Notes under the pieces: generated by a model
Databases searched by the model: none
The model's input: the letters and a program-made list of their open reading frames with translations, nothing else
What the model was told of the DNA's origin: nothing
Shown here: in pieces, positions 15,179 through 63,273 of the stretch
How the letters are laid out: every line of letters starts with the position of its first letter
Position numbering within the stretch: position 1 is the first letter of the stretch
Origin: a virus
Direction: 5' to 3' (one strand)
IMG/VR virus record: IMGVR_UViG_3300048583_000095
Location: 1-63,273 of that record
DNA: 63,273 nt
Made by a program: the position numbers and the translations under genes

Positions 15179-15183
15179 CGCAA

Positions 15184-15269: not shown

Positions 15270-15330
15270 CAAAGCGGCTTCGGTTCCAACACACTACTAA
15301 CGGTGCGCTGGTCTCGACCCGAAGCCGCGA

Positions 15331-15403
15331 GCCCGCCTAGCTCAGCGGATAGAGCATCCGGTTCCGGACCGGAAGGCGCGTGGTTCGAGTCCACGGGCGG
15401 GCA
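15331..15403 (+). tRNA. tRNA-Arg(CCG)
   Basis: Acceptor GCCCGCC/GGCGGGC, stem TCCGG/CCGGA, loop TTCCGGA, T-loop TTCGAGT. Confidence 0.85.
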
Positions 15404-15434
15404 CGCCAGATACACGACGAAAGAGGATGGATAC

Positions 15435-15848
15435 ATGCGAAAACTGACGAAGACGCTCGTCGCCGCTGCCGGTGCCGCGACGCTCGGGGTCACGCTCACG
15501 GCGTGCACCGCAGCCGACACGGCTTCACACAACATCTCCACAGCGGCCGAGAACTTCGAAGTCCTACGGCGCATCGTGTTCTTCAACGGGATCACGGACA
15601 CGTACCTTCTGACGATCGAAGGCCGCTGCAACATCGAAGACGAGGGCAATCAGCTCGAAGTCACGTGCAAGATCGCGGACGGCGACGGCGAGAACGCGTA
15701 CACGAAGCACTTTCTCGGCCTGTCCGACAACGTGACATACTTCGTCGAGCAGATGGAAGTCGTCGATGTCGACGAGTTCCATCACCGGATCATCTTCCGG
15801 CCCGAGACGATCGTGCCGGACATCGATCTAGAGACGTCGGGCAACTAA
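15435..15848 (+). CDS. secreted lipoprotein (signal peptide with lipobox LTAC)
   Basis: ORF 15303.. trimmed to ATG 15435 because the upstream part overlaps tRNA-Arg. N-terminus MRKLTKTLVAAAGAATLGVTLTAC. Confidence 0.8.
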   Translation: MRKLTKTLVAAAGAATLGVTLTACTAADTASHNISTAAENFEVLRRIVFFNGITDTYLLTIEGRCNIEDEGNQLEVTCKIADGDGENAYTKHFLGLSDNVTYFVEQMEVVDVDEFHHRIIFRPETIVPDIDLETSGN

Positions 15849-15854
15849 GCTTCA

Positions 15855-15872
15855 CGGGGGTGCGAGCCCCCG
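15855..15872 (+). terminator. short stem-loop after the lipoprotein gene
   Basis: CGGGGG-TGCGAG-CCCCCG. Confidence 0.45.
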
Positions 15873-15880
15873 GAAGCCGA

Positions 15881-15953
15881 GCGGGTTTAGAGTAGCGGTC
15901 ATCTCGTCACATTCTCAATGTGAAGATCACGGGTTCGAATCCCGTAACCCGTG
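15881..15953 (+). tRNA. tRNA-Glu(CTC)
   Basis: Acceptor GCGGGTT/AACCCGT, stem TCACA/TGTGA, loop TTCTCAA, T-arm ACGGG-TTCGAAT-CCCGT. Confidence 0.8.
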
Positions 15954-16037
15954 CAAGGCGACATGAGGCATACGAAGAAGGTCGCCCCGATCATCGGTCG
16001 GGAGCCGGGGGAGCCTCATCTCCGGCTCTGAAATAAA

Positions 16038-16111
16038 TGCCTTGTGGTGTAACCCGGCAACACGCTAAGCTTTGGACTTAGAGATTCTTGGTTCGAATCC
16101 AAGCGGGGCAG
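16038..16111 (+). tRNA. tRNA-Gln(TTG)
   Basis: U1-A72 acceptor TGCCTTG/CGGGGCA, stem CTAAG/CTTAG, loop CTTTGGA, G73. Confidence 0.8.
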
Positions 16112-16119
16112 CTATACGA

Positions 16120-16191
16120 TGCTCGGTAGCTCAGCGGCAGAGCGCGCGACTGTTAATCGCGTGGTCGAAGGTTCGAATCCTTCTCGGGCAG
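16120..16191 (+). tRNA. tRNA-Asn(GTT)
   Basis: Acceptor TGCTCGG/TCGGGCA, stem CGCGA/TCGCG, loop CTGTTAA, T-arm GAAGG-TTCGAAT-CCTTC, G73. Confidence 0.85.
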
Positions 16192-16211
16192 CTCGAACAA
16201 CTGAAGAACGA

Positions 16212-16283
16212 TGCTCGCTAGTTCAATGGCAGAACGGCCGCCTCTGGAGCGGAAGGTTCGTGGTTCGAATCCACGGTGAGCAG
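16212..16283 (+). tRNA. tRNA-Gln(CTG)
   Basis: Acceptor TGCTCGC/GTGAGCA, loop CTCTGGA, T-arm CGTGG-TTCGAAT-CCACG, G73; one mismatch at the top of the anticodon stem. Confidence 0.75.
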
Positions 16284-16341
16284 CTTGGACAAGCAAGACG
16301 TGAAGGCGTGACCAACCGCAGCGATGCGCGCGCCTGATCTA

Positions 16342-16413
16342 GCTCCGGTCGTCTATGGGTTAAGATCCGAGATTTTCACTCTCGGGTACAGGGTTCGAGT
16401 CCCTGTCGGAGTA
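16342..16413 (+). tRNA. tRNA-Glu(TTC)
   Basis: Acceptor GCTCCGG/TCGGAGT, stem CGAGA/TCTCG, loop TTTTCAC, T-arm CAGGG-TTCGAGT-CCCTG. Confidence 0.8.
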
Positions 16414-16605
16414 CGTGTGAGGTGACCGTGTGATAACTCTAGGTGACTCTAGAGCGTGATAACGGGTGAACTCAGGCAATGCCGGGTAAGGCTAGGGTCT
16501 CTCTGCCCCGGTCGCCGAAGTGAGGACTCGACGGTTAGTTTCCGGACGGAACCGCCGATGCCGGGTTAGTCGCCCGAATGCCTCGCGGAAGCGAGGAGAG
16601 AATAT
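16414..16605 (+). ncRNA. unassigned structured spacer inside the tRNA array (candidate small RNA)
   Basis: 192 nt with no tRNA T-loop and no ORF. Local hairpins CTCTAG-GTGACT-CTAGAG, CCGGG..CCCGG, CCTCGC-GGAA-GCGAGG. GTGATAAC is repeated twice. Confidence 0.3.
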
Positions 16606-16677
16606 GCCGTGTTAGCTCATTGGTAGAGCGTTCGCCTGTCGAGCGAAGGGTAACGGGTTCGATCCCCGTACATGGCG
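16606..16677 (+). tRNA. tRNA-Asp(GTC)
   Basis: Acceptor GCCGTGT/ACATGGC, stem TTCGC/GCGAA, loop CTGTCGA, G73. Confidence 0.85.
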
Positions 16678-16714
16678 CAAGGTTCCGACCGCTGACAGGA
16701 CGGCCGGAGCCGGA

Positions 16715-16786
16715 CGGGTTATGGCCTAGTGGGATGGCGCGTGATTTGGGATCACGAGGACCCCGGTTCGATTCCGGGTAACCCGA
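16715..16786 (+). tRNA. tRNA-Pro(TGG)
   Basis: Acceptor CGGGTTA/TAACCCG, stem CGTGA/TCACG, loop TTTGGGA, T-arm CCCGG-TTCGATT-CCGGG, A73. Confidence 0.85.
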
Positions 16787-16788
16787 CT

Positions 16789-16861
16789 GTGACGTTAGCT
16801 CAGCGGCAAGAGCGTTCGGATGTGGCCCGAAAGGTCGCGGGTTCGAATCCCGTACGTCACC
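16789..16861 (+). tRNA. tRNA-His(GTG)
   Basis: Acceptor GTGACGT/ACGTCAC, stem TTCGG/CCGAA, loop ATGTGGC, C73; no encoded G-1. Confidence 0.85.
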
Positions 16862-16876
16862 CCAACTTCATAGCAA

Positions 16877-16950
16877 GCCCCGTTAGCCCAACTGGCAGAG
16901 GCGTCTGATTTAGGTTCAGAAGGTTCCGAGTTCGACTCTCGGACGGGGTA
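16877..16950 (+). tRNA. tRNA with Leu anticodon TAG but a short (class I) variable arm
   Basis: Acceptor GCCCCGT/ACGGGGT, stem TCTGA/TCAGA, loop TTTAGGT, 5-nt variable region AGGTT, T-arm CCGAG-TTCGACT-CTCGG, A73. Confidence 0.6.
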
Positions 16951-16955
16951 CGTAA

Positions 16956-17028
16956 GCTCGTGTAGTCCAACGGCAGAGACACCGGATTCAAATCCCGGCA
17001 AGTCCCGGTTCGAATCCGGGCACGAGTA
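16956..17028 (+). tRNA. tRNA with Leu anticodon CAA but a short (class I) variable arm
   Basis: Acceptor GCTCGTG/CACGAGT, stem CCGGA/CCCGG (one A-C mismatch), loop TTCAAAT, variable CAAGT, T-arm CCCGG-TTCGAAT-CCGGG, A73. Confidence 0.6.
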
Positions 17029-17032
17029 CAGC

Positions 17033-17105
17033 GCCCCGGTAGCTCAGCGGATAGAGCGACGGTCTACGAAGCCGGTAGTCGATGGTTCGATTCCATCTCG
17101 GGGCA
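17033..17105 (+). tRNA. tRNA-Arg(ACG)
   Basis: Acceptor GCCCCGG/TCGGGGC, loop CTACGAA, T-arm GATGG-TTCGATT-CCATC, A73. Confidence 0.8.
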
Positions 17106-17123
17106 CGCAAGACAACTAGATAT

Positions 17124-17194
17124 GCCGGTGGGGTGTGTGGGTTGCACGACTGTCTTCCAAACAGTTAGACCGTGTTCGAGTCACGGTACCGGTT
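17124..17194 (+). tRNA. tRNA-Gly(TCC)
   Basis: Acceptor GCCGGTG/TACCGGT, stem ACTGT/ACAGT, loop CTTCCAA, T-arm CCGTG-TTCGAGT-CACGG, U73. Confidence 0.8.
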
Positions 17195-17267
17195 CGAGAG
17201 AAGGCGTCGCACAGACAGCAGGTGCGCGCACTGTGAAGGCTCGAAACCTTCGGCGTCTTCTCGCACT

Positions 17268-17340
17268 GCCTTCGTAGCTCAGTGGACAGAGCAGCCGTTT
17301 CGTAATCGGCCGGTCCGGGGTTCGAATCCTCGCGGAGGCT
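17268..17340 (+). tRNA. tRNA-Thr(CGT)
   Basis: Acceptor GCCTTCG/CGGAGGC, loop TTCGTAA, T-arm CGGGG-TTCGAAT-CCTCG. Confidence 0.8.
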
Positions 17341-17406
17341 CAAGGCTCGACAACGGCAGTTGGCGAGTTCGGCAAGACGTCAAATCTCGACCCCGAGATT
17401 TGAGAT

Positions 17407-17480
17407 GTCTCGTTAGCTCAGTTGGCAGAGCACCGGAGTGAAGTCCCGGGCGGCGTGGTTCGATCCCACGGCAAGAGACG
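17407..17480 (+). tRNA. tRNA-Phe(GAA), atypical T-stem/acceptor junction
   Basis: D-arm GCTC-AGTTGGCA-GAGC, stem CCGGA/CCCGG, loop GTGAAGT, T-loop TTCGATC. Acceptor GTCTCGT/AAGAGAC only fits with 2 extra nt or a 7-bp T-stem. Confidence 0.55.
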
Positions 17481-17506
17481 GTTAAGTGTGCTGCTATACT
17501 CGACGC

Positions 17507-17905
17507 ATGACGAAACGTGAAAATTACAATGAGTACATGCGCGAGTACATGCTTAAGCGATACCACCGACGCCGGTCGGACTCGATCGAGAATCTAGGCG
17601 GGAAGTGTGTCGTCTGCGGCACCACGGACAATCTAGAGATCGACCACATCGACCGGAGCACGAAGACGATGGATATCAGCGGCCTATGGTCGTGCAATAT
17701 CCAGCGGTACGAGACGGAACTCAAGCTCTGTCAACTGCTGTGCGAAGCGCACCACCAGGAGAAGACGAGCCGGGAAAGCTCTGTACCTCACGGAGGCGGC
17801 GCGTCCGGTAAGCGCAACTGTAAATGCGAACCGTGCAGACTTCGCAAAAACGAATATATGCGCAATTGGAAACAAAAGAATAAGCAAGCCTCGTTAGCTC
17901 AGTAG
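17507..17905 (+). CDS. HNH endonuclease
   Basis: CVVCGTTDNLEIDHIDRSTK ... LLCEAHHQEKT HNH/zinc motif. ORF 17486.. trimmed to ATG 17507. The last 18 nt overlap tRNA-Lys(CTT). Confidence 0.85.
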   Translation: MTKRENYNEYMREYMLKRYHRRRSDSIENLGGKCVVCGTTDNLEIDHIDRSTKTMDISGLWSCNIQRYETELKLCQLLCEAHHQEKTSRESSVPHGGGASGKRNCKCEPCRLRKNEYMRNWKQKNKQASLAQ

Positions 17906-17961
17906 GTCAGAGCTTCCGGCTCTTAACCGGTAGGTCCCTGGTTCGAATCCAGGACGGGGCA
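17888..17961 (+). tRNA. tRNA-Lys(CTT)
   Basis: Acceptor GCCTCGT/ACGGGGC, loop CTCTTAA, T-arm CCTGG-TTCGAAT-CCAGG, A73. Confidence 0.85.
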
Positions 17962-17962
17962 C

Positions 17963-18035
17963 GCCTCGCAAGCACATGTGGACGTGCTCTCGACTTTTAA
18001 TCGAGAGGTACCCGGTTCGAGGCCGGGGCGGGGCA
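17963..18035 (+). tRNA. tRNA-Lys(TTT)
   Basis: Acceptor GCCTCGC/GCGGGGC, D GCAC/GTGC, stem CTCGA/TCGAG, loop CTTTTAA, T-arm CCCGG-TTCGAGG-CCGGG. Confidence 0.85.
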
Positions 18036-18043
18036 CGTTTTAC

Positions 18044-18118
18044 ACCCCGCTAGCTCAGCGGATAGAGCCGGAGTTTCCTAAACTCTGTGGGTCTCGGGTT
18101 CGAATCCCGGGCGGGGTA
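18044..18118 (+). tRNA. tRNA-Arg(CCT)
   Basis: Acceptor ACCCCGC/GCGGGGT, stem GGAGT/ACTCT, loop TTCCTAA, T-loop TTCGAAT. Confidence 0.8.
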
Positions 18119-18119
18119 C

Positions 18120-18194
18120 GGCGAGTTAGCTCAACATGGTTAGAGCGCGATCCTGATACGATCGTGGTTCCGAGTTCAAATCTCGGGCTCGCTA
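18120..18194 (+). tRNA. tRNA-Ile(GAT)
   Basis: Acceptor GGCGAGT/GCTCGCT, stem CGATC/GATCG, loop CTGATAC, T-arm CCGAG-TTCAAAT-CTCGG. Confidence 0.8.
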
Positions 18195-18195
18195 C

Positions 18196-18268
18196 GCACC
18201 GGTAGCTTAGTGGCAAAAGCAGCGGCTTTACATACCGCTGATCGAAGGTTCGAGTCCTTCTCGGTGCA
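18196..18268 (+). tRNA. tRNA-Val(TAC)
   Basis: Acceptor GCACCGG/TCGGTGC, loop TTTACAT, T-arm GAAGG-TTCGAGT-CCTTC, A73. Confidence 0.8.
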
Positions 18269-18357
18269 CGGATACGCACGCTGTGCATGGCGTGTATAGA
18301 CGGGGTTAAGTACCGTCTCGCGGGGATGTCGCTCCCGTGTCCTCCCATGCGGCGCAA

Positions 18358-18430
18358 GGGCTGTTAGCTCCAACGGTAGAGCGTCTGTTTTGCAAACAGA
18401 GGGTTGTCGGTTCGAATCCGTCACGGTCCA
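18358..18430 (+). tRNA. tRNA-Ala(TGC)
   Basis: Acceptor GGGCTGT/ACGGTCC with a G3-U70 pair, stem TCTGT/ACAGA, loop TTTGCAA, A73. Confidence 0.85.
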
Positions 18431-18485
18431 CGGAGGGTGCGAGCGCGTGTTAACGACTTCGGCGCGCGCTCGCGCTCTACCCCAC

Positions 18486-18556
18486 GGCGTGATGTCCGAG
18501 TGGCTAGGTCGCAGACTGCAAATCTGCTCACGTGGGTTCGAATCCCGCTCGCGCCT
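18486..18556 (+). tRNA. tRNA-Cys(GCA)
   Basis: Acceptor GGCGTGA/TCGCGCC, stem GCAGA/TCTGC, loop CTGCAAA, T-arm GTGGG-TTCGAAT-CCCGC, U73. Confidence 0.8.
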
Positions 18557-18584
18557 CTCATGAAGTACGACGAAAGGACGAAAG

Positions 18585-49553: not shown

Positions 49554-49994
49554 CTAGCAGACGGCGCGGTCGATGCTGATCACGTCGGCGCGGAAACCGA
49601 GTCGCTTCGCGAAGAGCTTTGCGATCTTCTCGAAGGTGTTCGCCTTGATCGTGATGGTTCCGGCCGTCAGCATGTAGCGGCGGCCGACGCGGACGATCGA
49701 ACCGCCCACGGTGCGGCCGTCGAAGGCGGCCGTGACGATGGCGCGGCCGGGAGCGTCGCGCAGAATGGCGACCTCGTTCGGCTGCTGCGACTGGCCGACC
49801 TGCTCGGCGAAGCGCTCTTGCGCGGCGTCGTCGATGTTCTCGATCGCGATCGACAGCTCGGCGAGGCCGTCGTGAGCGAGCACGGCGACGAGTTCGCCCT
49901 TCTTCATCGTCGAGCGTCCGGCGATGTTGTATGAAGCGGCGAGCTTACGCAGCTCGGCAACAGTCTTGCTGTTCAGGGAAGCCGTGAGGTTCAT
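49554..49994 (-). CDS. protein with a Rho-N/SAP-like N-terminal motif
   Basis: TVAELRKLAASYNIAGRSTMKKGELVAVL; ATG after AGACGATAGGACGAAACG motif. Confidence 0.7.
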   Translation of the reverse strand: MNLTASLNSKTVAELRKLAASYNIAGRSTMKKGELVAVLAHDGLAELSIAIENIDDAAQERFAEQVGQSQQPNEVAILRDAPGRAIVTAAFDGRTVGGSIVRVGRRYMLTAGTITIKANTFEKIAKLFAKRLGFRADVISIDRAVC

Positions 49995-50050
49995 CGTTTC
50001 GTCCTATCGTCTGTCGTCGTTCTGACTGGTAAAAGTAATTTAGCATGGCA

Positions 50051-50079
50051 TCGGGGGACCCTGCAAGGGGGTCCCCCGA
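50051..50079. terminator. bidirectional hairpin between dcd and the next transcription unit
   Basis: TCGGGGGACCC-7 nt-GGGTCCCCCGA with flanking A/T runs. Confidence 0.7.
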
Positions 50080-50107
50080 TTTATTTCAGAGCATGTATTT
50101 CCGCAGG

Positions 50108-50605
50108 TCACAGCACGCTAGGCGTGGCTCCGGCCTGCCCTTGGTAGTGGCTCCCAAGGTCGGGGGAGCCGTACGGCCGCTCAGAACGGCTCATGCAGCG
50201 AAGGTACGTGATCTGACACAACCGCGCGCCCACCGGAAGTCGCAGCGTCTCTGTCTGCGTGAGGTTCTTCAGTTCGAGCGTGATCGTGCCCCGGAAGCCG
50301 GGGTCAACGAACCCGGCCGTCGCGTGCACGAGCAGTCCCTTCCGACCCCACGACGACCGGCCTTCGACCCGTGCGGCGTAGCCGTTCGGCACGTACACAG
50401 CTTCACGTGTGGTGGTAAGGATGAACTCGCCGGGCGCGAGCGCGTACGACGCGCCTTTGACAAGCTCGTGCTTCACGCCGTCTGCGATGAACTCGTTCCC
50501 TAGCGTGAGATCGACGCTCGCAGGTTGCAGGTGATCAGCTTCCCACGGCTCGACGATCCCGTGTCGCCGTTGCAAGTCCCACAGATCGATGTCGGCAAGG
50601 ATCAC
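50108..50605 (-). CDS. dcd: dCTP deaminase (dUTPase superfamily)
   Basis: QPASVDLTLG ... GRSSWGRKGLLVHATAGFVDPGFRGTITLEL signature. Confidence 0.88.
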   Translation of the reverse strand: MILADIDLWDLQRRHGIVEPWEADHLQPASVDLTLGNEFIADGVKHELVKGASYALAPGEFILTTTREAVYVPNGYAARVEGRSSWGRKGLLVHATAGFVDPGFRGTITLELKNLTQTETLRLPVGARLCQITYLRCMSRSERPYGSPDLGSHYQGQAGATPSVL

Positions 50606-50739
50606 CGGTCACCCTCCGGCTTCGTGCCGTACTTCTTCGCGAAGGGGTTCCCCTTCGTCGTCTGGTCGCGCACCTGCTCGGTTTGCGGATCACGCGGCGT
50701 CGGCCGCGAGCCGATGCGGGGCGGACGTTGGTCTGCCAT
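50602..50739 (-). CDS. small basic protein (45 aa)
   Basis: ATG after GAGGATTGACC; ATGA-type coupling to dcd. Confidence 0.5.
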   Translation of the reverse strand: MADQRPPRIGSRPTPRDPQTEQVRDQTTKGNPFAKKYGTKPEGDR

Positions 50740-50741
50740 GG

Positions 50742-51242
50742 TCAATCCTCCGTGTTCTCGTCGTGCGTGGCGCACGTCGGCTTGTCGATCTCCGTGCGCG
50801 CATAGCAGTCGTACGTCTGGCAGCACAGCACGGCCGTGCAGATGTGTGCGTACGCGCCGTATTCCTGCTCGAAGAGTGCTTCAGGCGCGTCGCCCCGGTC
50901 GACCGTGTTCCGCGCCGCCTGCGCGTCCTCCTGCGCCGAGCGGATCACAACGACGATCTGCACGGGCAGCTCGGGCAAGAACGGCACGATCTCGGCGGGC
51001 GCGTGGTGCGCCGGATCGCGGTAGCCGTGCTGATTCTCGAAGCGCTGCGCGCCGCCGAAGGCCCCGTTCCGGTTCTTGTACACGAACCGCTTGATAGGGG
51101 GCGCGCTCGGCGAGTCGCCCCGGTGCTGCACGCTCAGCTCGGCGCGGCCGTCGTCGTAGTTGATCAGCGTGTACTGAAACGCGGCGCTGAGCGCCTGCTG
51201 AATGTTGATCTGCTTCGGATGCAGGTTCCACACGAGTTGCAT
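50742..51242 (-). CDS. hypothetical protein with a Cys-rich C-terminus
   Basis: ORF trimmed to the ATG after CGACGAGAGGACAGACG motif; divergent from the Y-RNA/Ro60 operon. Confidence 0.7.
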   Translation of the reverse strand: MQLVWNLHPKQINIQQALSAAFQYTLINYDDGRAELSVQHRGDSPSAPPIKRFVYKNRNGAFGGAQRFENQHGYRDPAHHAPAEIVPFLPELPVQIVVVIRSAQEDAQAARNTVDRGDAPEALFEQEYGAYAHICTAVLCCQTYDCYARTEIDKPTCATHDENTED

Positions 51243-51345
51243 CGTCTGTCCTCTCGTCGGTTGTCGATGAGAAAATTTTATCACGGGCCGATCGAGTCCA
51301 CGGCACCGGCCTTGAGCTGCGGCGACGCCGAAGGCGGGTACCCGG

Positions 51346-51374
51346 TTGCGAGCCTTCGGACCCTCGTGTATATT
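51346..51374 (+). promoter_or_regulatory. near-consensus sigma-70/SigA-type promoter TTGCGA-17-TATATT with TG extension
   Basis: -35 at 51346-51351; TG at 51367-51368; -10 at 51369-51374; predicted start near 51381, where the first Y-RNA-like helix begins. Confidence 0.7.
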
Positions 51375-51381
51375 CGAATCA

Positions 51382-51500
51382 TGCACCGCTCGAAGTGCCG
51401 TGAATGGCTACTTCATTGGTTCGATTCCGATCGGTCCCCCTTACTTGGGACCGTGCCCGTTGGCGGGCATATCCGATCACACTTTGATTCGAGCGGCACA
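51382..51500 (+). ncRNA. Y RNA-like module 1 (YrlA-like, with tRNA-like domain)
   Basis: Closing helix CCGCTCGAA (51386-94) / TTCGAGCGG (51488-96) with CGAAGTG and GATTCG. T-arm ATTGG-TTCGATT-CCGAT. Closed acceptor-like hairpin CGGTCCC-8 nt-GGGACCG. D-arm CCCG-TTGG-CGGG. Confidence 0.6.
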
Positions 51501-51502
51501 AC

Positions 51503-51628
51503 TTCATCCCGAAGTGCAGCACGCGGTTACTTCCACTACCAATCTCAGTGGACGCGGCAAGCATCCGGTTCGGCCGGAAGTAGCTTCCGATCACGTCCGT
51601 TTCCGCAGGCGACGAGATTCGGGATGAT
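51503..51628 (+). ncRNA. Y RNA-like module 2 (no clear tRNA-like domain; YrlB-like)
   Basis: Closing helix TCATCCCGAA (51504-13) / TTCGGGATGA (51618-27) with the same CGAAGTG...GATTCG signature; internal hairpins. Confidence 0.45.
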
Positions 51629-51632
51629 CTAA

Positions 51633-51787
51633 GTTCATAGCTGTCCGAAGTGAAGAGTTCGGTTACTTCGAATCAGGATCGAGAGGTCGGAGGTTCGATT
51701 CCTCCCATCCCGAAGAGTCGGGATGTAGCTCAGTGGATAGAGCGCTAACATTTCCGCACTCGCCCGGATTCGGACAGCTCATAAGTT
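51633..51787 (+). ncRNA. Y RNA-like module 3 (YrlA-like, with tRNA-like domain)
   Basis: Helix AGCTGTCCGAA (51639-49) / TTCGGACAGCT (51769-79). Second helix GAGTTCGG/CCGCACTC. T-arm GGAGG-TTCGATT-CCTCC. Hairpin CATCCCG-AAGAGT-CGGGATG. TA + D-arm GCTC-AGTGGATA-GAGC. Confidence 0.65.
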
Positions 51788-51790
51788 TCA

Positions 51791-51887
51791 CATCTCCCGA
51801 TGTGACGCGCACGGATACTTCGGAAAAGGTTCTTTGCTAGAACGTGGTTCGAAACCACATGCCGAGCGCACTGTGAATCGGGAGGTC
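51791..51887 (+). ncRNA. Y RNA-like module 4 (variant CGATGTG/GAATCG; partial tRNA-like elements)
   Basis: Helix ATCTCCCGA (51792-800) / TCGGGAGGT (51878-86); internal GTTC-TTTGCTA-GAAC and T-arm-like GTGG-TTCGAAA-CCAC. Confidence 0.45.
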
Positions 51888-51894
51888 TCAACTG

Positions 51895-52043
51895 AAGAGC
51901 GACGCGCGAAGTGCAGAGAACGGTTCCTTCCGTCTGTTAAACGGCTGATCCGGGTTCGAGTCCCGGCCCTCGTCTAAACGCTTGGGTAGCTCAATTGGTA
52001 GAGCAGCAGTGTCCCGGTCTCGATCGGATTCGCGCGCCGCTTT
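51895..52043 (+). ncRNA. Y RNA-like module 5 (YrlA-like, with tRNA-like domain)
   Basis: Helix CGCGCGAA (51903-10) / TTCGCGCG (52029-36). T-arm CCGGG-TTCGAGT-CCCGG. Imperfect closed acceptor-like hairpin. TA + D-arm GCTC-AATTGGTA-GAGC. Confidence 0.55.
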
Positions 52044-52085
52044 CTTCGGGTGTAGTCCTCCCACCCCTGTAAACGAGAGGACATC

Positions 52086-53732
52086 ATGACGAAGTTCAAC
52101 AAGGTCGGAACCCGCACGGCGACGCAGTCGCCGATTTCGAGCGCCGTCAAGCCGCGTCTGAAGACGGGCGAAGGCGCACAGGGATTCAAGCGCGACGCGA
52201 AGGGCGAACTCTTCGTGCTCGCGGTCGGCCGCTTCTTCGGCGAGAAGACGTTTTACGAGACGCCCGACGCAGGCGCGAAGCGCTTCGTCGCGCTCGTGCG
52301 CGAGGTCGCCACGGCCGACCCCGCTTGGGTCGCTGAGTTCCTGAAGTGGCTCCGCAGTGAAGCCAACATCCGCACGTCGGCGATCGTCGGCGCAGTGGAG
52401 TACGCGCGCACCATGCAGGCACTCGCGCGTGACGGCGAGCTGCCGCTTCACGCGTCGCACACGGCGCGCGCCGTCGTCCGTTCGGTACTTCAGCGCGCCG
52501 ACGAGCCCGGCGAGATGATCGCGTACTGCCGCTCGCAGTACGGCCGCTCGATCCCGATCGCCGTGAAGCGCGGCATCGCCGACGCGATCTCGGGGCTGAA
52601 GACGGGCCGGAAGGCGCTGTACACGGAGTATTCGCTTCTCAAGTACGACACGCCGTCGCACGGCTACCGCTTCGGCGACGTCGTCGACACGGTGTGCCCG
52701 GCGACCACGCACCCCGACGTGCGCGACACGCCGACCGGCGATCTCTTCGAGTTCGCCATCGACCGTCGCCACGGCCGTGAGAGCATCGACCCCGAGCTGT
52801 TCCCGCTGCTCACGAAGAACTCGCAGTACCGTCGACTCGTCGGTTCGAACCCGAACCTACTCCTCGACGTCGAGAAGCTTCGCGCGGCCGGGCTCACGTG
52901 GGAAGACGCACTCTCGCTCGGGGGCGACAAGATCGACAAGCGGAAGCTGTGGGAAGCGCTCATCGACGCCGACGCGCTCGGCTACATGGCGTTGATTCGC
53001 AACCTTCGCGGCTTCGACGAAGCCGGAGTGTCGAAGGTGCACGCGCAGAAGGTCGCCGATATCATCGCCGACCCCGAGCGCGTGAAGTCCTCGCGACAGC
53101 TTCCGTACCGGTACCTGTCGGCGTACAAGGCCGCGCCGTCGCTCCGTTGGGGGCAGGCGCTCGAAGAAGCGCTTGACCTGTCAACAGCGAACGTACCGAA
53201 GCTGCGCGGGCGCACGCTCGTGCTCGTCGACACGTCGGCGTCGATGCAGACGCCGTTGTCGGACCGCTCTTCGGTGCACTACGTCGAAGCGGCGGCGCTC
53301 TTCGGCGTCGCGCTCGGGCGCAACGCCGCGAAGGTCAACCTGTACGGCTTCGCGACGGGCACGTTCCGGCACGAACTCGCTTACGGCGGGTCGGTGCTGC
53401 GGCAGACGAAGCAGCTCGTCGACCGTGTCGGCGAAGCCGGGCACGGAACCGACATCGCCGGAGCCGTGCGCGCCACGTACGCCGGGCACGACCGCGTCGT
53501 GATTCTGACGGACATGCAGACGGTCGGCGGAATCGGGTACTACGGCCGCAGTGTCACGGAATCCGTTCCCGCGAACGTCCCGCTGTACGCGTGGAACCTC
53601 ACGGGCTACGTGGCGTCGATGATGCCGACCGGATCGGGCAACCGGCACGAGTTCGGCGGGTTCTCGGATTCGGCGTTCAGCATCATGCAGACGCTCGAAG
53701 CCGGGCGCGACGGCCGGTGGCCGTGGCAGTGA
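52086..53732 (+). CDS. rsr: Ro60-related protein (TROVE domain + vWA domain), Rsr ortholog
   Basis: N-terminal TROVE-like pattern (GEGAQGFKRDAKGELFVLAVGRFFGEKTFYE). C-terminal vWA MIDAS LVLVDTSASM with later GHGTDI and VVILTDMQT. RBS GAGAGGA. Confidence 0.85.
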   Translation: MTKFNKVGTRTATQSPISSAVKPRLKTGEGAQGFKRDAKGELFVLAVGRFFGEKTFYETPDAGAKRFVALVREVATADPAWVAEFLKWLRSEANIRTSAIVGAVEYARTMQALARDGELPLHASHTARAVVRSVLQRADEPGEMIAYCRSQYGRSIPIAVKRGIADAISGLKTGRKALYTEYSLLKYDTPSHGYRFGDVVDTVCPATTHPDVRDTPTGDLFEFAIDRRHGRESIDPELFPLLTKNSQYRRLVGSNPNLLLDVEKLRAAGLTWEDALSLGGDKIDKRKLWEALIDADALGYMALIRNLRGFDEAGVSKVHAQKVADIIADPERVKSSRQLPYRYLSAYKAAPSLRWGQALEEALDLSTANVPKLRGRTLVLVDTSASMQTPLSDRSSVHYVEAAALFGVALGRNAAKVNLYGFATGTFRHELAYGGSVLRQTKQLVDRVGEAGHGTDIAGAVRATYAGHDRVVILTDMQTVGGIGYYGRSVTESVPANVPLYAWNLTGYVASMMPTGSGNRHEFGGFSDSAFSIMQTLEAGRDGRWPWQ

Positions 53733-53815
53733 TAGGGCTCGCGTGCGTGGCCGCGTGGATATCACTGGTAGTCGTGATCATCTGCGCGGCGCAGGAATCG
53801 CGTAGGCGGAAGTAA
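53729..53815 (+). CDS. possible 28-aa membrane peptide
   Basis: GTGA overlap with the rsr stop; VIGLACVAAWISLVVVIICAAQESRRRK. Confidence 0.3.
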   Translation: MIGLACVAAWISLVVVIICAAQESRRRK

Positions 53816-53819
53816 GCGC

Positions 53820-53845
53820 AGGGCCGACCCCGAAGGGTCGGCCCT
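53820..53845 (+). terminator. terminator hairpin after the rsr operon
   Basis: AGGGCCGACCC-CGAA-GGGTCGGCCCT. Confidence 0.75.
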
Positions 53846-53851
53846 TCGTGG

Positions 53852-53868
53852 TACTCTGACATAATTCG
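53852..53868 (+). promoter_or_regulatory. class-1 promoter-like box TACTCTGACATAATTCG
   Basis: ACTCTGAYAnnATTC family; 23 nt upstream of ATG 53891. Confidence 0.6.
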
Positions 53869-53890
53869 ACAACCGACGAAAGGACAGAAC

Positions 53891-54598
53891 ATGACCGATA
53901 TCGACTGGGAAGAAGCCGCGCGGCGAAACCTTGCGGACTACCGGACCGCTCAGGCACAGCTCGATGTTCTGCGCGAACACCTCGCGGCCGGAACGGCGTC
54001 GGACGGACACCACACGCACAATGAGCTGTATCAGTACCGGATGTTGTACAACGCCCTCGCGCTGCACGGATTCACGGCAGTCGGATGGGAAGTCACCCGG
54101 TCGTGGCGTCACCACAGCGGGGAAGAGTGCTTCGGCGGGGGATGGTTCGTCGTGCAGGCGGACACTCCGGCCGGGCAGGTGACGAACCACTACCAGGCCG
54201 ATCACTGGTATCTCTTCGAAGGCATCCCCGACGTCGAGACGTCGCCCGCTTGGGACGGCCACACGCCGCCCATCGCAGCGCAGCGGCTCGAAGCCGCGAT
54301 CACATTCCTACGGCAGGCGTTCGCCGAGAAGAGGAACCGCGCCGACCTCATGCGCCGCGCATACGCGCGCGTGATCCGCGAGCGCGACATGCAGGCTGGT
54401 CCCGGCCTCACGCTCCACATCAATGCGCTGTCGCAGGTGGCGGGCGCATCGATGCACCTCGTACAGCAGTGGGCAGAGACGAGCGACGACGGCCGGAACC
54501 ACCTGCTGTCGAACCTCGCGAAGTCCTTGGACAAGCTCGAATACGTCGAAGCGAAGCTAGGGATCGCCATCGACGAGTATCCGAAGGGAGGTGAATAG
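53891..54598 (+). CDS. WDGH-motif protein (hypothetical)
   Basis: ATG after CGACGAAAGGACAGAAC; contains SPAWDGHTPP. Confidence 0.75.
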   Translation: MTDIDWEEAARRNLADYRTAQAQLDVLREHLAAGTASDGHHTHNELYQYRMLYNALALHGFTAVGWEVTRSWRHHSGEECFGGGWFVVQADTPAGQVTNHYQADHWYLFEGIPDVETSPAWDGHTPPIAAQRLEAAITFLRQAFAEKRNRADLMRRAYARVIRERDMQAGPGLTLHINALSQVAGASMHLVQQWAETSDDGRNHLLSNLAKSLDKLEYVEAKLGIAIDEYPKGGE

Positions 54599-54600
54599 GA

Positions 54601-54687
54601 ATGAAGGGGCCGTGCACTATCTGCGGGAACTACCATCCCGCCCCGGGAGCCGGGCAGGCTGCGAACGCCAATTGCGGCAGCACGTAG
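54601..54687 (+). CDS. possible 28-aa Cys-containing peptide
   Basis: ATG 3 nt after the upstream stop with GGAGGTGAATAGGA upstream; MKGPCTICGNYHPAPGAGQAANANCGST. Confidence 0.3.
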   Translation: MKGPCTICGNYHPAPGAGQAANANCGST

Positions 54688-54749
54688 CCGGATAGCGGAC
54701 AGCGCTCGACGCTGTCCGCTACGCTCGGCGTAACGAGAAAGGATGAAGG

Positions 54750-54971
54750 ATGTTCTACACCACGCGTCCGGGATGGAATGTCGAGACGTCCCACCCGGTC
54801 GAAGAAGGTCAGTCGGACAGCGAACCGCTCTGCCCGACTGCCGCATGTATCGACGGCATCGCCCCGGCAATCGCCTTCGCGACCGATTGGGGCTCGTCGG
54901 CGTTCCAAGCGCAGACGACCGACCCCGACAGCACCGTGCACACGATCGTCGTCCGGGAGATGGCACCGTAA
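54750..54971 (+). CDS. hypothetical protein
   Basis: ATG after CGAGAAAGGATGAAGG. Confidence 0.65.
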   Translation: MFYTTRPGWNVETSHPVEEGQSDSEPLCPTAACIDGIAPAIAFATDWGSSAFQAQTTDPDSTVHTIVVREMAP

Positions 54972-54974
54972 GGG

Positions 54975-54998
54975 GGTCCCGGCCGCGAGGCCGGGACC
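54975..54998 (+). terminator. terminator hairpin
   Basis: GGTCCCGGCC-GCGA-GGCCGGGACC. Confidence 0.7.
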
Positions 54999-55017
54999 GA
55001 CGAAAGGACGAAAGGTC

Positions 55018-55446
55018 ATGTTCGCAACCATCTTCGCGGCGCTACTCGTCGGGCACTACCTCGGCGACTACTTTGTGCAGACGGACTACCAGGCGCAGCA
55101 CAAGGGACAAGGCGGAACGCGGTTCCTTGACCAGCTCGGCCGGTGGAACTGCGCGAAGCACGCCGTGACGTACACGGCGTCGCTTGCCGGAGTGCTCGGC
55201 GCGGCGCTCGTCGTCGAAGGCGTCGAGTACGACGGACACGCCGCACTCGTCGTGTGGTCGACGTTGACCCTGAACGGGATCACGCACTACATCATCGACC
55301 GCAGGTGGACGCTCGAAGCCGCGATGCGCCTGATCGGCAAGTCGGGGTGGATCGACGCCGACCGCGAGGCGCTGCCGAAGCTCGACCAGGCGGCGCACGT
55401 CGTCTTGCTCGGCCTCTTTGCGCTCGCTATCGCCGCGCTGATCTAG
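55018..55446 (+). CDS. membrane protein (DUF3307-like, HYLGDY motif)
   Basis: ATG after CGACGAAAGGACGAAAGGTC; LVGHYLGDYFVQTDYQA and several TM helices. Confidence 0.75.
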   Translation: MFATIFAALLVGHYLGDYFVQTDYQAQHKGQGGTRFLDQLGRWNCAKHAVTYTASLAGVLGAALVVEGVEYDGHAALVVWSTLTLNGITHYIIDRRWTLEAAMRLIGKSGWIDADREALPKLDQAAHVVLLGLFALAIAALI

Positions 55447-57966: not shown

Positions 57967-58191
57967 ATGAAGAGCAAGCAGACGCGCGCGCAGCGCGCCG
58001 AGCTGAAGCGACGCGGGATCAAGCCCGGCAAGGTCACGGAGGAGAACCAACACGGGCAGGCGACGGGGGGATGGTCGCCGTTCGCCGCGCCTGCCGCTCC
58101 GGCCCGGATGGAACCGGTCGACGACGTCGCGTACGACGCCTTCGACCGCGTCAACCGGTCATGGTTCACGCACAAGCCGAAAGGGCAGTAA
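57967..58191 (+). CDS. hypothetical protein
   Basis: ATG 57967 within ORF 57622..58191; basic N-terminus. Confidence 0.6.
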   Translation: MKSKQTRAQRAELKRRGIKPGKVTEENQHGQATGGWSPFAAPAAPARMEPVDDVAYDAFDRVNRSWFTHKPKGQ

Positions 58192-63062: not shown

Positions 63063-63273
63063 CTACGGCCCGCGCTGGCTATCCGGGGGTACTCGGGTAT
63101 AGGAATCGGGGTGTGAGGCCGTCAGCGTTGACGCTAGGCCCCTTAACGGCCGGATCGCGACGGTACCCGACATGCTCTCTTGCCGGGCCGCGAGCATCGG
63201 CCCCATGTCGGCGAGCGCTTCGCGAAGCGCGGCGCTCGCGCGGGCGCGCTGGGAATCGTCGAGATCGGCGGCG
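63063..63273 (-). CDS. 3' part of the junction-spanning gene (63147-63273 duplicates 1-127)
   Basis: Same frame continues ...GTVAIRPLRGLASTL... to TAG (plus-strand CTA at 63063-63065). Confidence 0.65.
   Translation of the reverse strand, partial: AADLDDSQRARASAALREALADMGPMLAARQESMSGTVAIRPLRGLASTLTASHPDSYTRVPPDSQRGP
63147..63273. repeat. 127-bp exact end overlap (copy 2)
   Basis: Identical to positions 1-127. Confidence 0.95.

What the first reader, a model, noticed from the sequence alone, without database searches (positions are those of the whole stretch)
51346..53732. Phage Ro60 (TROVE-vWA) gene preceded by a tandem array of five Y-RNA-like modules under one strong promoter
CDS 52086..53732 has a TROVE-like N-terminus and a vWA MIDAS motif (LVLVDTSASM), which is the Ro60/Rsr architecture. 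The 700 bp upstream has no credible ORF. A TTGCGA-17-TATATT promoter with a TG extension sits at 51346-51374. After it come five consecutive modules. Each is closed by a long-range helix built on a conserved 5' CGAAGTG (51391, 51510, 51646, 51907; CGATGTG at 51798) and a 3' GATTCG (51486, 51616, 51767, 52027; GAATCG at 51875). The UCCGAAG-type lower stem resembles, from memory, the conserved Ro-binding stem of Y RNAs. Bacterial rsr genes are known to sit next to one or a few Y RNA genes, and phage examples are reported. Five tandem modules reading straight into rsr with no terminator in between looks like an unusually expanded Ro60/Y-RNA RNA-surveillance cassette.
Basis: partly seen in the sequence, partly recalled or inferred. 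Interest (0 to 1): 0.9.

Follow-up and report, generated by a model that had tools for sequence, protein, structure and literature searches.

The report
Phage Ro60 gene with five Y-RNAs
A complete 63-kb uncultivated phage genome carries a Ro60 (RNA-surveillance) gene preceded by one conserved promoter and five back-to-back Y-RNA-like genes, two of them tRNA mimics; this is a known kind of cassette in an expanded form.

Summary
CDS 52086-53732 is a Ro60/Rsr orthologue: Pfam TROVE E=1e-17, and the best solved relative is Thermus phage phiLo Ro60 at E=3e-30, with the MIDAS DTSAS motif.

The 843-bp gap upstream has no coding signature. It holds one promoter (51346-51374) that is nearly invariant in relatives, followed by five abutting modules of 95-144 nt.

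All five share a core: a closing stem ending in GAA/UUC, an internal loop (GUG / GA), a second stem ending in CGG/CCG, then NUACUUC. Across 53 distinct module cores from 14 related phage loci, 91.6% of cells pair, against 24-39% when partners are slid, and 14 of 18 pairs show compensatory changes.

M3 and M5 carry a T arm, a closed acceptor-like stem and a D arm, and hit Rfam YrlA (E=2e-5 and 1e-4), though below the gathering score. M1, M2 and M4 carry other inserts.

"Unusually expanded" needs tempering. Relatives of this phage have 4-6 modules. The cultured actinophages Satis and Atuin have unannotated arrays of 3-4. Eighty actinobacterial rsr loci have 0-4.

It is a new, copy-rich member of the known Ro60/Y-RNA (YrlA/YrlB) system. 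Ro binding and processing into five RNAs are inferred, not shown.

The parts
51346..51374 (+). Sigma-70-type promoter TTGCGA-17-TATATT. The predicted start is about 51381-51383, at the foot of module 1.
   Evidence: It is the only promoter-like site in 50500-54500. The block GGTACCCGGTTGCG...TCGTGTATATTCGAATCATGC is nearly invariant in 13 relatives whose Ro proteins are 63-95% identical. The 21-mer recovers the same phage family from IMG/VR.
51386..51496 (+). Module M1. It has the Y-RNA core, a T-arm-like hairpin (UUGGUUCGAUUCCGA, about 51415-51431) and two further hairpins. It resembles M. smegmatis YrlB (ACUUCA..GGUUCGA).
   Evidence: Fold z = -4.35. In the RNAalifold alignment of 13 orthologues, 8 of 21 pairs are compensatory. 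The YrlB probe sequence is taken from PMC4201824.
51504..51627 (+). Module M2. It has the Y-RNA core plus two hairpins and no tRNA-like element. It is variably present in relatives: no M2 in L001, L034, L037 or L039, and L005 has a different 96-nt element in its place.
   Evidence: Fold z = -3.70. 12 of 39 pairs are compensatory in 9 orthologues, including CCCGAA/UUCGGG to CUUGAA/UUCAAG and CAUGAA/UUCAUG.
51639..51779 (+). Module M3, a YrlA-type tRNA mimic. T arm 51689-51705; 7-bp closed acceptor-like stem 51706-51725; UA; D arm 51728-51743.
   Evidence: Rfam YrlA hit at 51668-51776, 33.8 bits, E=2e-5. 12 of 29 pairs are compensatory in 14 orthologues, in the closing stem, T stem and acceptor-like stem. 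The region shows 78% DNA identity to the stretch upstream of the TROVE gene in Xanthomonas phages.
51792..51886 (+). Module M4. It is the shortest module, with core motif CGAUGUG / GAAUCG. The window copy has an extra T-arm-like hairpin (GUGGUUCGAAACCAC) that orthologues lack.
   Evidence: Fold z = -2.88. 5 of 12 pairs are compensatory in 13 orthologues. The A-U to U-A flip at core pair 11/52 is specific to this module.
51898..52041 (+). Module M5, a second YrlA-type module. V hairpin with anticodon-loop-like CUGUUAA 51930-51944; T arm 51950-51966; acceptor-like stem 51967-51986 (two mismatches in this copy); D arm 51989-52004.
   Evidence: Rfam YrlA hit at 51920-52036, 31.2 bits, E=1e-4, and a sub-threshold tRNA hit at 51902-51974 of 24.7 bits. 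21 of 41 pairs are compensatory in 14 orthologues. The single-sequence fold is not better than shuffles (z = -0.30).
52042..52085 (+). Leader of the Ro60 gene. It begins with a U-rich tract (UUUCUU) directly after the M5 closing stem, followed by GUCCUC...GAGGAC, which can pair over the Shine-Dalgarno GAGAGGA.
   Evidence: The sequence is conserved in relatives. The fold shows the hairpin, but z = -0.70, so a regulatory role is only a possibility.
52086..53732 (+). Ro60/Rsr orthologue of 548 aa, with a TROVE (HEAT-repeat ring) domain and a vWA domain carrying the MIDAS motif DTSAS (aa 382-386).
   Evidence: Pfam TROVE E=1e-17, VWA_2 19.1 bits, which is below its cut-off. PDB 9KOP/9L5Y (Thermus phage phiLo Ro60) E=2.9e-30, aligned over aa 16-173 and 270-543. 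More than 4000 homologues. D382, S384 and S386 are invariant in 12 phage and actinobacterial orthologues. GC3 = 0.88.

Best explanation
This is a phage-borne Ro60/Y-RNA cassette. One promoter (51346-51374) drives a single transcript that starts at the foot of module 1. It runs through five Y-RNA-like modules and continues into the Ro60 gene.

Each module folds on itself through pairing of its own 5' and 3' ends. All five present the same Ro60-docking core: a closing stem ending in GAA/UUC, a GUG / GA internal loop, a second stem of 4 bp, one mismatch and CGG/CCG, then NUACUUC. Each carries a different apical 'effector' domain. M3 and M5 carry a circularly permuted tRNA-like domain (T arm, closed acceptor-like stem, D arm), which makes them the YrlA type. 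M1 carries a lone T-arm-like hairpin, like M. smegmatis YrlB. M2 and M4 carry plain hairpins.

Inferred steps are as follows. Host endonucleases cut the short (6-12 nt) A/U-rich spacers to release five Y RNAs. RNase P may also cut at the 7-bp acceptor-like stem of M3, as it does in M. smegmatis YrlA. Each RNA binds the outer face of the phage Ro60 ring. There it gates the ring and tethers it to a different host partner, with PNPase the best-documented one. This would redirect host RNA decay and quality control during infection, possibly as a counter-defence.

The identity of the protein, the modular RNA structures, their conservation and the shared promoter are shown. Processing, Ro binding and the partners are inferred from characterised homologues.
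For: Protein: TROVE E=1e-17. phiLo Ro60 structures 9KOP/9L5Y E=3e-30, including the MIDAS region.

RNA: YrlA hits in M3 and M5. Each module is closed by an 8-11 bp helix, with fold z-scores of -2.9 to -4.4 for M1-M4.

Orthologous arrays of 4-5 modules are found by the descriptor in 13 related phage contigs. Two more distant relatives, L040 and L041 (53-60% Ro identity), carry a variant-motif array of 5 and 6 modules, read by eye.

Compensatory changes occur in every module. On the pooled core alignment of 53 distinct sequences, 91.6% of cells are paired against 24-39% for slid partners. The covariation score is 0.605 against 0.05-0.12, and 0 of 500 shuffles reach it.

The promoter is almost invariant while its flanks diverge. 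No terminator-like site lies inside the array. There is no codon-position GC bias in the array.

Precedents:
- M. smegmatis YrlA and YrlB lie upstream of rsr, are processed from one precursor and are co-immunoprecipitated with Rsr, and YrlA is cut by RNase P (PMC4201824).
- phiLo Ro60 binds two upstream Yrl RNAs, identified by their CGAA motif, and forms ternary complexes with host PNPase (PMC12135203).
- The Ro60-like gp130 of phage Bas63 counters the ppl defence system (PMC11482910).
Against: No transcript, processing or binding data exist for this phage, and its host is unknown.

Both YrlA hits are well below Rfam's gathering score (34 and 31 bits against 69).

The published 5' motif GNCGAAN0-1G is only partly met. 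CGAAG is present in 4 of 5 modules, but the leading G is absent. In relatives the C of CGAA is replaceable by a compensated U or A.

M5 in this window has two mismatches in its acceptor-like stem and folds no better than shuffled sequence.

GAAGU can also pair locally with the conserved ACUUC (predicted for M1 and M3). Both motifs are invariant, so covariation cannot choose between that fold and the long-range GAA/UUC pairing.

The U-rich tract after M5 could stop part of the transcription before the Ro gene, so 'one operon' is not proven.
Confidence: 0.75

Rival explanations
1. The array is not cut into five RNAs. It acts as one long structured leader, or 'poly-Y' scaffold, that loads several Ro60 rings on a single transcript. 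It might also autoregulate Ro60 translation through the leader hairpin over the Shine-Dalgarno sequence.
For: The spacers are only 6-12 nt, and there is no internal promoter or terminator. A conserved GUCCUC...GAGGAC pairing over the SD lies directly after M5. phiLo Ro60 forms higher-order and dimeric RNPs with its Yrl RNAs (PMC12135203).
Against: In M. smegmatis, the closest characterised locus, the precursor is processed into separate YrlA and YrlB (PMC4201824). Modules are gained and lost as independent units among relatives (M2 is absent in four of them, and L041 has an extra module). That pattern fits independent genes better than one integrated leader. The SD hairpin is not more stable than shuffled sequence (z = -0.7).
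Confidence: 0.15
2. The tRNA-like modules act mainly without Ro60. They would serve as tRNA mimics or decoys that occupy host tRNA-binding enzymes or tRNA-targeting defence nucleases, complementing the phage's 28 tRNA genes.
For: M3 and M5 have a canonical T loop, D loop and 7-bp acceptor-like stem. The M5 V hairpin has a 7-nt loop CU-NN-U-AA in all 14 relatives, as in anticodon loops. tRNA finders mis-call such modules as tRNAs in relatives. [quoted passage not shown]
Against: All five modules, including the three without a tRNA-like domain, keep the same covarying docking core. They are strictly linked to a Ro60 gene in phages and bacteria, while control positions and the opposite strand show none. 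This argues that Ro60 binding is the common function. A decoy role could be an added function rather than an alternative.
Confidence: 0.08
3. The modules are decayed tRNA genes or a chance-structured GC-rich spacer, and have no function of their own.
For: There is a sub-threshold tRNA model hit on M5 (24.7 bits against 29). T-arm-like GGUUCGANNCC elements occur in four modules.
Against: ARAGORN calls no tRNA in the array. The arm order is permuted, with the T arm before the D arm. Structure is maintained by compensatory changes across loci whose Ro proteins are only 63-95% identical. The composite motif occurs 4 times against 0.01 expected.
Confidence: 0.02

Closest known systems
Mycobacterium smegmatis rsr locus with YrlA and YrlB (Chen et al. 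2014, RNA 20:1715; PMC4201824)
   Same: It is an actinobacterial-type locus with Y RNAs directly upstream of rsr on the same strand, made from one precursor. One RNA has a T arm, a 7-bp acceptor-like stem and a D arm (YrlA, like M3 and M5). Another has only a T arm (YrlB, like M1). The probe-derived sequences UUACCACUUC and GACUUCAAGGUUCGA resemble the NUACUUC(A..GGUUCGA) element seen here.
   Different: That locus has two RNAs against five here. M2 and M4 have no described counterpart there. The element here is phage-borne. [quoted passage not shown]
Thermus phage phiLo Ro60 with Yrl1 and Yrl2 (NAR 2025, gkaf470; PMC12135203; PDB 9KOP, 9L5Y)
   Same: It is a phage-encoded Ro60 with Y-RNA-like genes upstream, identified by a CGAA motif within a 5'/3' stem. 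Its protein is the best solved relative of this one (E=3e-30).
   Different: phiLo has two Yrl RNAs and reports no tRNA-like domain. The proteins are only distantly related. phiLo has biochemical evidence (EMSA, cryo-EM, PNPase ternary complex) that is lacking here.
Rfam RF02553 YrlA (Salmonella Typhimurium YrlA prototype, in the rtcBA-rsr operon)
   Same: M3 and M5 align end to end to the model (positions 1-114) with the same order: outer stems, T arm, acceptor-like stem, D arm.
   Different: Scores are 31-34 bits against a gathering score of 69. There is no RtcR/sigma-54 control or rtcB/rtcA neighbours here. A sigma-70-type promoter is used instead.
Deinococcus radiodurans Rsr with Yrn1/Yrn2 and the RYPER (Ro-Y RNA-PNPase) machine
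   Same: Several small RNAs are encoded upstream of rsr (four candidates, a-d, of which two are validated). The Y RNA tethers Ro to PNPase, and this is the mechanism inferred here.
   Different: The Y-RNA lineage is different, with both strands of the metazoan-like binding helix conserved and a different arm order. The locus is chromosomal and stress-induced.
Metazoan Y RNAs (e.g. human Y1/Y3/Y4/Y5)
   Same: They are about 80-150 nt, with 5' and 3' ends paired into a stem, internal loop and stem that carries the Ro60 site. The 5' strand GGUCCGA(A/U)G resembles M3's UGUCCGAAGUG and M4's CCCGAUGUG. Several paralogues exist, each with a different loop.
   Different: They are separate Pol III genes, not a polycistronic array. 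They have no tRNA-like domain, and there is no detectable sequence homology beyond the short motif.

Membership tests
Ro60 / Rsr protein | TROVE (HEAT-repeat ring) domain | tested here: met
   Pfam PF05731 E=1e-17, 64.9 bits against a cut-off of 23. phmmer to phiLo Ro60 9KOP/9L5Y E=2.9e-30 over aa 16-173 and 270-543.
Ro60 / Rsr protein | C-terminal vWA domain with MIDAS DxSxS | tested here: met
   LVLVDTSASM at aa 378-387 aligns with phiLo LFLVDVSGSM. D382, S384 and S386 are invariant in 12 orthologues. The Pfam VWA_2 and vWA_Ro60 hits are below their cut-offs (19.1/27 and 13.9/27.7 bits), so support comes from the motif and the alignment, not from a domain call.
Ro60 / Rsr protein | Closed ring fold with a central cavity | not tested
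   No structure prediction was run. The fold is inferred from full-length homology to solved Ro60 proteins.
YrlA (Rfam RF02553) | Covariance-model score at or above the curated gathering score (69 bits) | tested here: not met
   M3 scores 33.8 bits (E=2e-5) and M5 31.2 bits (E=1e-4). No hit appears at gathering threshold. All YrlA hits next to Ro genes in six cultured phages and four metagenomic relatives are also below the gathering score, at 32-50 bits.
YrlA (Rfam RF02553) | tRNA-like domain in the permuted order T arm, closed acceptor-like stem, D arm, set on a stem formed by the RNA's 5' and 3' parts | tested here: met
   Present in M3 and M5. The T stem, acceptor-like stem and closing stem all show compensatory changes in 14 orthologues.
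YrlA (Rfam RF02553) | Encoded within 4 kb of, and on the same strand as, a Ro60 orthologue (criterion of Chen et al. 2014) | tested here: met
   M3 ends 306 nt and M5 ends 44 nt upstream of the Ro60 start codon, on the same strand.
YrlA (Rfam RF02553) | 5' motif GNCGAAN0-1G (proposed Rsr contact) | tested here: inconclusive
   CGAAG is present in M1, M2, M3 and M5, and CGAUG in M4. The G two bases upstream is absent in all five. In relatives the C is replaced by U or A with a compensating change.
Y RNA (functional class) | 80-150-nt RNA whose 5' and 3' ends pair into a stem, internal loop and stem | tested here: met
   Modules are 95-144 nt. The shared core is paired in 91.6% of 954 cells, and 14 of 18 pairs have compensatory changes.
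Y RNA (functional class) | Bound by, and usually stabilised by, Ro60 | not testable with these tools
   This needs RIP or EMSA. Only linkage to Ro genes is shown: chains of modules end at the rsr start in 71 of 80 actinobacterial loci, against 2 of 79 at a control position and 0 of 80 on the opposite strand.
Y RNA (functional class) | Accumulates as a discrete small RNA | not testable with these tools
   No transcript data are available. Processing is inferred from M. smegmatis (PMC4201824).
tRNA | Cloverleaf recognised by tRNA finders, with arms in the order acceptor, D, anticodon, T | tested here: not met
   ARAGORN finds none in 51300-52100. The Rfam tRNA hit on M5 scores 24.7 bits, below the threshold of 29. 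The arm order is permuted.

The most novel reading that the evidence does not exclude
The array is a panel of adaptor RNAs. Five Y RNAs share one Ro60-docking core but carry five different effector domains. Each would couple the phage Ro60 ring to a different host factor, such as PNPase or other RNases, RNase P, the CCA-adding enzyme, or tRNA-modifying enzymes through the two tRNA mimics and the anticodon-loop-like V hairpin. Together they would form a multi-target take-over or counter-defence device whose repertoire evolves by gain and loss of modules, giving the 4-6 seen in relatives.
Probability: 0.25. Interest if true: 0.7.

Novelty: new member of a known kind. Interest (0 to 1): 0.42.

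Why it matters
Ro60/Y-RNA particles are conserved from bacteria to humans, where they are lupus and Sjogren autoantigens. How different Y RNAs specialise one Ro60 protein is still poorly understood.

This phage lineage offers a compact natural experiment. One promoter and one Ro60 gene sit with four to six Y RNAs that share an identical, covariation-defined docking core but differ in their effector domains. Modules are visibly gained and lost between close relatives.

The 53-sequence core alignment gives a sharper definition of the actinobacterial-type Ro-binding element than the published GNCGAAN0-1G motif. That element is G-R-W-GUG ... CGG-NUACUUC ... CCG ... GAWUC.

The work also shows that similar arrays of 3-4 modules sit unannotated, or mis-annotated as tRNAs, in cultured actinophages (Satis, Atuin, VanLee) and in many actinobacterial genomes. 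Those organisms are experimentally tractable.

Recent reports show that phiLo Ro60 recruits host PNPase and that a Ro60-like protein of phage Bas63 counters a defence system. Against that background, these arrays are good candidates for studying RNA-based host take-over.

Tried and rejected
- A near-identity search of the region against 50,697 GenBank phages found nothing, so no annotated record could be borrowed. A distant search found only short Ro-gene and tRNA-like matches.
- Rfam at gathering thresholds found only tRNAs elsewhere in the window. The YrlA hits appear only at E-value thresholds. Sub-threshold hits to Plastid-ycf2, cyano_tmRNA and mascRNA in the array cover the T-arm or tRNA-like elements and were dismissed.
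- My first, loose helix finder (any CGAxG ... TCG with a stem of 8 bp or more) gave about 50 hits per strand in the window and was useless. It was replaced by motif-anchored descriptors, whose background I measured.
- A first composite-motif search used the wrong spacing and hit nothing relevant. It was corrected.
- I considered building a 'mini-core' covariance model with the effector domain excised. I rejected this because the maximum hit length of such a model would exclude real modules of 95-150 nt. Module counts in bacteria and cultured phages therefore rest on a descriptor tuned to this family and are probably undercounts.
- The SD-sequestering hairpin was tested and is not more stable than shuffles, so it is reported only in passing.
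- The reviews by Sim et al. 2020 and Boccitto & Wolin 2019, and the supplementary tables of Chen et al. 2014, are not held. I therefore could not check whether multi-copy arrays in Actinobacteria are tabulated there.
- The long + strand ORF 50589-51632 that crosses M1-M2 was rejected as coding, with GC3 of 0.57 inside the array.


Full report
**1. What is in the sequence**

The window is a complete tailed-phage genome. It is 63,273 bp at 64% GC, and its first 100 nt recur at 63147, giving a 127-nt terminal repeat. PHROGs identify a primase, DNA polymerase, helicase, tape measure protein, major head protein, portal and terminase. There are 27 clustered tRNA genes at 14.5-18.6 kb and one more at 58.1 kb. 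No phage in GenBank is close at the DNA level.

The finding lies between two divergent genes. A minus-strand gene ends its reading at its ATG at 51242 (ORF 50742-51386, GC3 0.90). The plus-strand CDS is 52086-53732. The 843 bp between them have no coding signature: ORFs that cross it have GC3 of 0.53-0.63, against 0.88-0.90 in the neighbours. Gene callers placed nothing in the equivalent 680-930-bp gaps of ten relatives.

**2. The protein**

CDS 52086-53732 (548 aa) hits Pfam TROVE at E=1e-17. Among solved structures, it matches only the Ro60 of Thermus phage phiLo (9KOP/9L5Y, E=2.9e-30). That alignment covers both the N-terminal and C-terminal halves, with LVLVDTSASM opposite the phiLo MIDAS LFLVDVSGSM. 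D382, S384 and S386 are invariant in an alignment with phage and actinobacterial orthologues.

The protein has more than 4000 homologues. The closest 50 or so (63-95% identity) sit on contigs of up to about 61 kb, that is, sister phages. The nearest named bacteria are Actinomycetota at about 50% identity. The nearest cultured phages infect Streptomyces, Gordonia and Arthrobacter, at about 40%. The host is therefore probably an actinobacterium.

**3. The promoter**

TTGCGA-17-TATATT at 51346-51374 is the only sigma-70-like site in 4 kb, and no terminator-like site follows it before the CDS. The block GGTACCCGGTTGCG-N-TCGTGTATATTCGAATCATGC is almost invariant in 13 relatives while the flanks diverge. 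More distant relatives keep a promoter at the same place with different hexamers (TTGCAC-17-TATTGT). The TG abuts the hexamer rather than sitting at the canonical extended -10 position.

**4. The five modules**

Each module folds into a unit closed by an 8-11-bp helix between its own ends. The modules are:
- M1, 51386-51496
- M2, 51504-51627
- M3, 51639-51779
- M4, 51792-51886
- M5, 51898-52041

They are separated by 6-12 nt. The composite 5' motif GRWGTG-N8-GGNTWCYTC occurs four times in the window, all in the array, against 0.01 expected. M5 differs by one base. A descriptor requiring the 5' motif, the 3' motif and the closing helix finds the five modules and only one stray hit per strand elsewhere in 63 kb.

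**5. Comparative support**

I fetched loci around relatives of the protein from IMG/VR, JGI metagenomes and Logan assemblies. Thirteen loci with 63-95% identical Ro proteins have the same array in the same order, with 4 or 5 modules. M2 is missing in four of them and replaced by an unrelated 96-nt element in a fifth. Two relatives at 53-60% identity have a variant core (GAAGCG ... GGAUCUC), with five modules in L040 and six in L041.

Per-module RNAalifold alignments show compensatory changes in every module:

| Module | Compensatory pairs |
|---|---|
| M1 | 8 of 21 |
| M2 | 12 of 39 |
| M3 | 12 of 29 |
| M4 | 5 of 12 |
| M5 | 21 of 41 |

Aligning the 5' and 3' core segments of all modules (53 distinct sequences) exposes a common architecture. 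It consists of an 11-bp closing stem ending in G-C, A-U, A-U; an internal loop (GUG+2 nt on one side, 5 nt+GA on the other); a second stem of 4 bp, a 1x1 mismatch and CGG/CCG; then NUACUUC.

For that structure, 91.6% of 954 cells are standard pairs, against 24-39% when the partners are slid by 1-3 columns. Fourteen of 18 pairs have double changes. The covariation score is 0.605, against 0.05-0.12 for slid partners and 0.17 for shuffles, and 0 of 500 shuffles reach it.

The C of 'CGAA' is an ordinary covarying pair (C-G 47, U-A 6). The invariant letters are G9, G12-U13-G14, the GA before UUC, and most of CGG-NUACUUC.

One ambiguity remains. GAAGU can also pair locally with ACUUC (predicted for M1 and M3). 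Because both motifs are invariant, covariation cannot decide between this and the long-range GAA/UUC pairing.

**6. What the modules are**

M3 and M5 match Rfam YrlA end to end (33.8 bits, E=2e-5; 31.2 bits, E=1e-4). Both have the defining permuted tRNA-like domain. In M3 this comprises T arm 51689-51705, a perfect 7-bp acceptor-like stem closed by a 6-nt loop (51706-51725), UA, and D arm 51728-51743. The stems of both modules covary.

The scores are below Rfam's gathering score of 69. The same is true of every YrlA hit next to Ro genes in six cultured phages and four metagenomic relatives (32-50 bits). So the model seems poorly tuned to this clade.

M5 also has a 'V' hairpin whose 7-nt loop is CU-NN-U-AA in all 14 relatives. 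M1 has a lone T-arm-like hairpin after ACUUCA. The probe sequence printed in PMC4201824 shows the same arrangement (GACUUCAAGGUUCGA) in M. smegmatis YrlB. M2 and M4 have plain hairpins.

The motif that Chen et al. proposed as the Rsr contact, GNCGAAN0-1G, resembles the metazoan GGUCCGA (PMC4201824). It is met only in its CGAAG part.

**7. Mechanism**

Shown: a Ro60 orthologue; five conserved, independently folding RNAs with a common core and different apical domains; one conserved promoter; the same strand; and no internal terminator.

Inferred from characterised relatives:
- The transcript is cut into separate Y RNAs. M. smegmatis YrlA and YrlB come from one precursor, and YrlA is cut by RNase P at its 7-bp acceptor-like stem and receives CCA (PMC4201824).
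- Each RNA binds Ro60 through the core.
- The effector domains tether Ro60 to partners such as PNPase. This is the RYPER complex in D. radiodurans and Salmonella, and ternary Ro60-Yrl-PNPase complexes form with phiLo (PMC12135203).

A counter-defence role is conceivable, because the Ro60-like gp130 of phage Bas63 counters the ppl system (PMC11482910).

The rivals are an unprocessed poly-Y leader, Ro-independent tRNA decoys, and decayed tRNA genes. They are weighed in the rival section. The last is excluded by the covariation data and by the arm order.

**8. How unusual is it?**

The literature I could read documents two Y RNAs per characterised bacterium or phage, and four candidates in D. radiodurans (PMC4201824, PMC12135203). 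I found no paper describing a five-module phage array.

My own scans show that tandem arrays are common in this clade:
- Streptomyces phage Satis has three modules in the unannotated gap upstream of its Ro gene.
- Arthrobacter phage Atuin has four downstream of its Ro gene, filling gaps between annotated tRNAs.
- Spirillospora and other actinobacterial genomes have up to four.

In 80 actinobacterial rsr loci, chains of abutting modules ending at the rsr start have these lengths:

| Chain length | 0 | 1 | 2 | 3 | 4 |
|---|---|---|---|---|---|
| Loci | 9 | 20 | 26 | 13 | 12 |

Controls at another position gave a chain in 2 of 79 loci, and the opposite strand gave 0 of 80. The descriptor was tuned on the phage family, so the bacterial counts are probably underestimates.

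Five (and six in L041) is thus the top of a continuum, not a break from it.

**9. Verdict**

This is a new, copy-rich member of the known Ro60/Y-RNA (YrlA/YrlB-type) system, in an uncultivated actinophage lineage.

Its value lies in three things: the sharply defined common docking core, the natural series of effector-domain variants, and the pointer to unannotated arrays in tractable cultured phages.

Noticed in passing
window 1-63273 (repeat: 1-127 and 63147-63273): The contig has a 127-nt direct terminal repeat, so the window is a complete phage genome of about 63.1 kb at 64% GC. It encodes a primase, DNA polymerase I, helicase, FtsK-like protein, tape measure protein, major head protein, portal and terminase.
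   Followed up: partly
window 14499-18557 (+) and 58096-58182 (-): There is an array of 27 tRNA genes covering most amino acids, plus a lone tRNA-Ser(tga) on the other strand. That is a large tRNA set for a 63-kb phage that also carries two tRNA-mimicking Y RNAs.
   Followed up: no
L042 2204-2275 (Gordonia phage VanLee, NC_073474 65454-65525): The annotated 'tRNA-Arg(tct)' just upstream of the Ro-like gene looks like part of an M5-type Y-RNA module. It is UUACUUC, then the hairpin CGCCUUCUAAGCG (identical to the M5 V hairpin of L001), then a T arm. It is followed by an acceptor-like stem and a D arm, and is overlapped by a YrlA hit at 2244-2307. ARAGORN likewise calls pseudo-tRNAs inside modules of L028 (4149-4216) and L041 (2172-2240).
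   Followed up: partly
L043 2024-2428 (Streptomyces phage Satis); L045 4248-4830 (Arthrobacter phage Atuin): These cultured actinophages carry unannotated tandem arrays of 3 and 4 Y-RNA-like modules next to their Ro-like genes. In Atuin the array lies downstream of the gene, filling the gaps between annotated tRNA genes.
   Followed up: partly
L048-L127 (80 actinobacterial rsr loci), about 600 nt upstream of each rsr: Chains of 2-4 abutting Y-RNA-like modules end at the rsr start in 51 of 80 genomes. Examples with four are Spirillospora L053, Microbispora L059 and Planomonospora L064. Their core motif is a variant: GGUGCG ... NUACUUC ... GAUCUCGG.
   Followed up: partly
window 51930-51944 and the equivalent position in 13 relatives: The V hairpin of M5 has a 7-nt loop that reads CU-NN-U-AA in every relative (CUGUUAA, CUUCUAA, CUAUUAA, CUGCUAA, CUACUAA, CUUUUAA). 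This is an anticodon-loop-like signature (U33, U36, A37, A38) with a variable 'anticodon'. Its significance is unknown.
   Followed up: no
window 52042-52085: A UUUCUU tract lies directly after the long M5 closing stem and may be a leaky stop. A conserved GUCCUC...GAGGAC pairing covers the Shine-Dalgarno sequence of the Ro60 gene. The hairpin is not more stable than shuffled sequence (z = -0.7).
   Followed up: partly
window 51662-51757; L047 1750-1845 and 2226-2334 (Xanthomonas phage Usaquen): The tRNA-like part of M3 is 78% identical over 96 nt to an unannotated stretch just upstream of a 'hypothetical' TROVE-like gene in about ten Xanthomonas/Xylella phages of 43 kb. Those phages have two YrlA hits of their own, at 50 and 40 bits.
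   Followed up: partly
window 51821-51862: The window's M4 carries an extra insert (GGAAAAGGUUCUUUGCUAGAAC and the T-arm-like GUGGUUCGAAACCAC) that none of the 12 orthologous M4 copies has. This is a recent change of effector domain within one module.
   Followed up: no
window 49554-51242 (-) and 53891-55446 (+): The neighbours of the cassette are conserved in relatives. Upstream and divergent are a 166-aa protein of unknown function, a dCTP deaminase/dUTPase-like protein and a Rho_N-domain protein. Downstream are a WDGH-domain protein and a DUF3307 protein.
   Followed up: no
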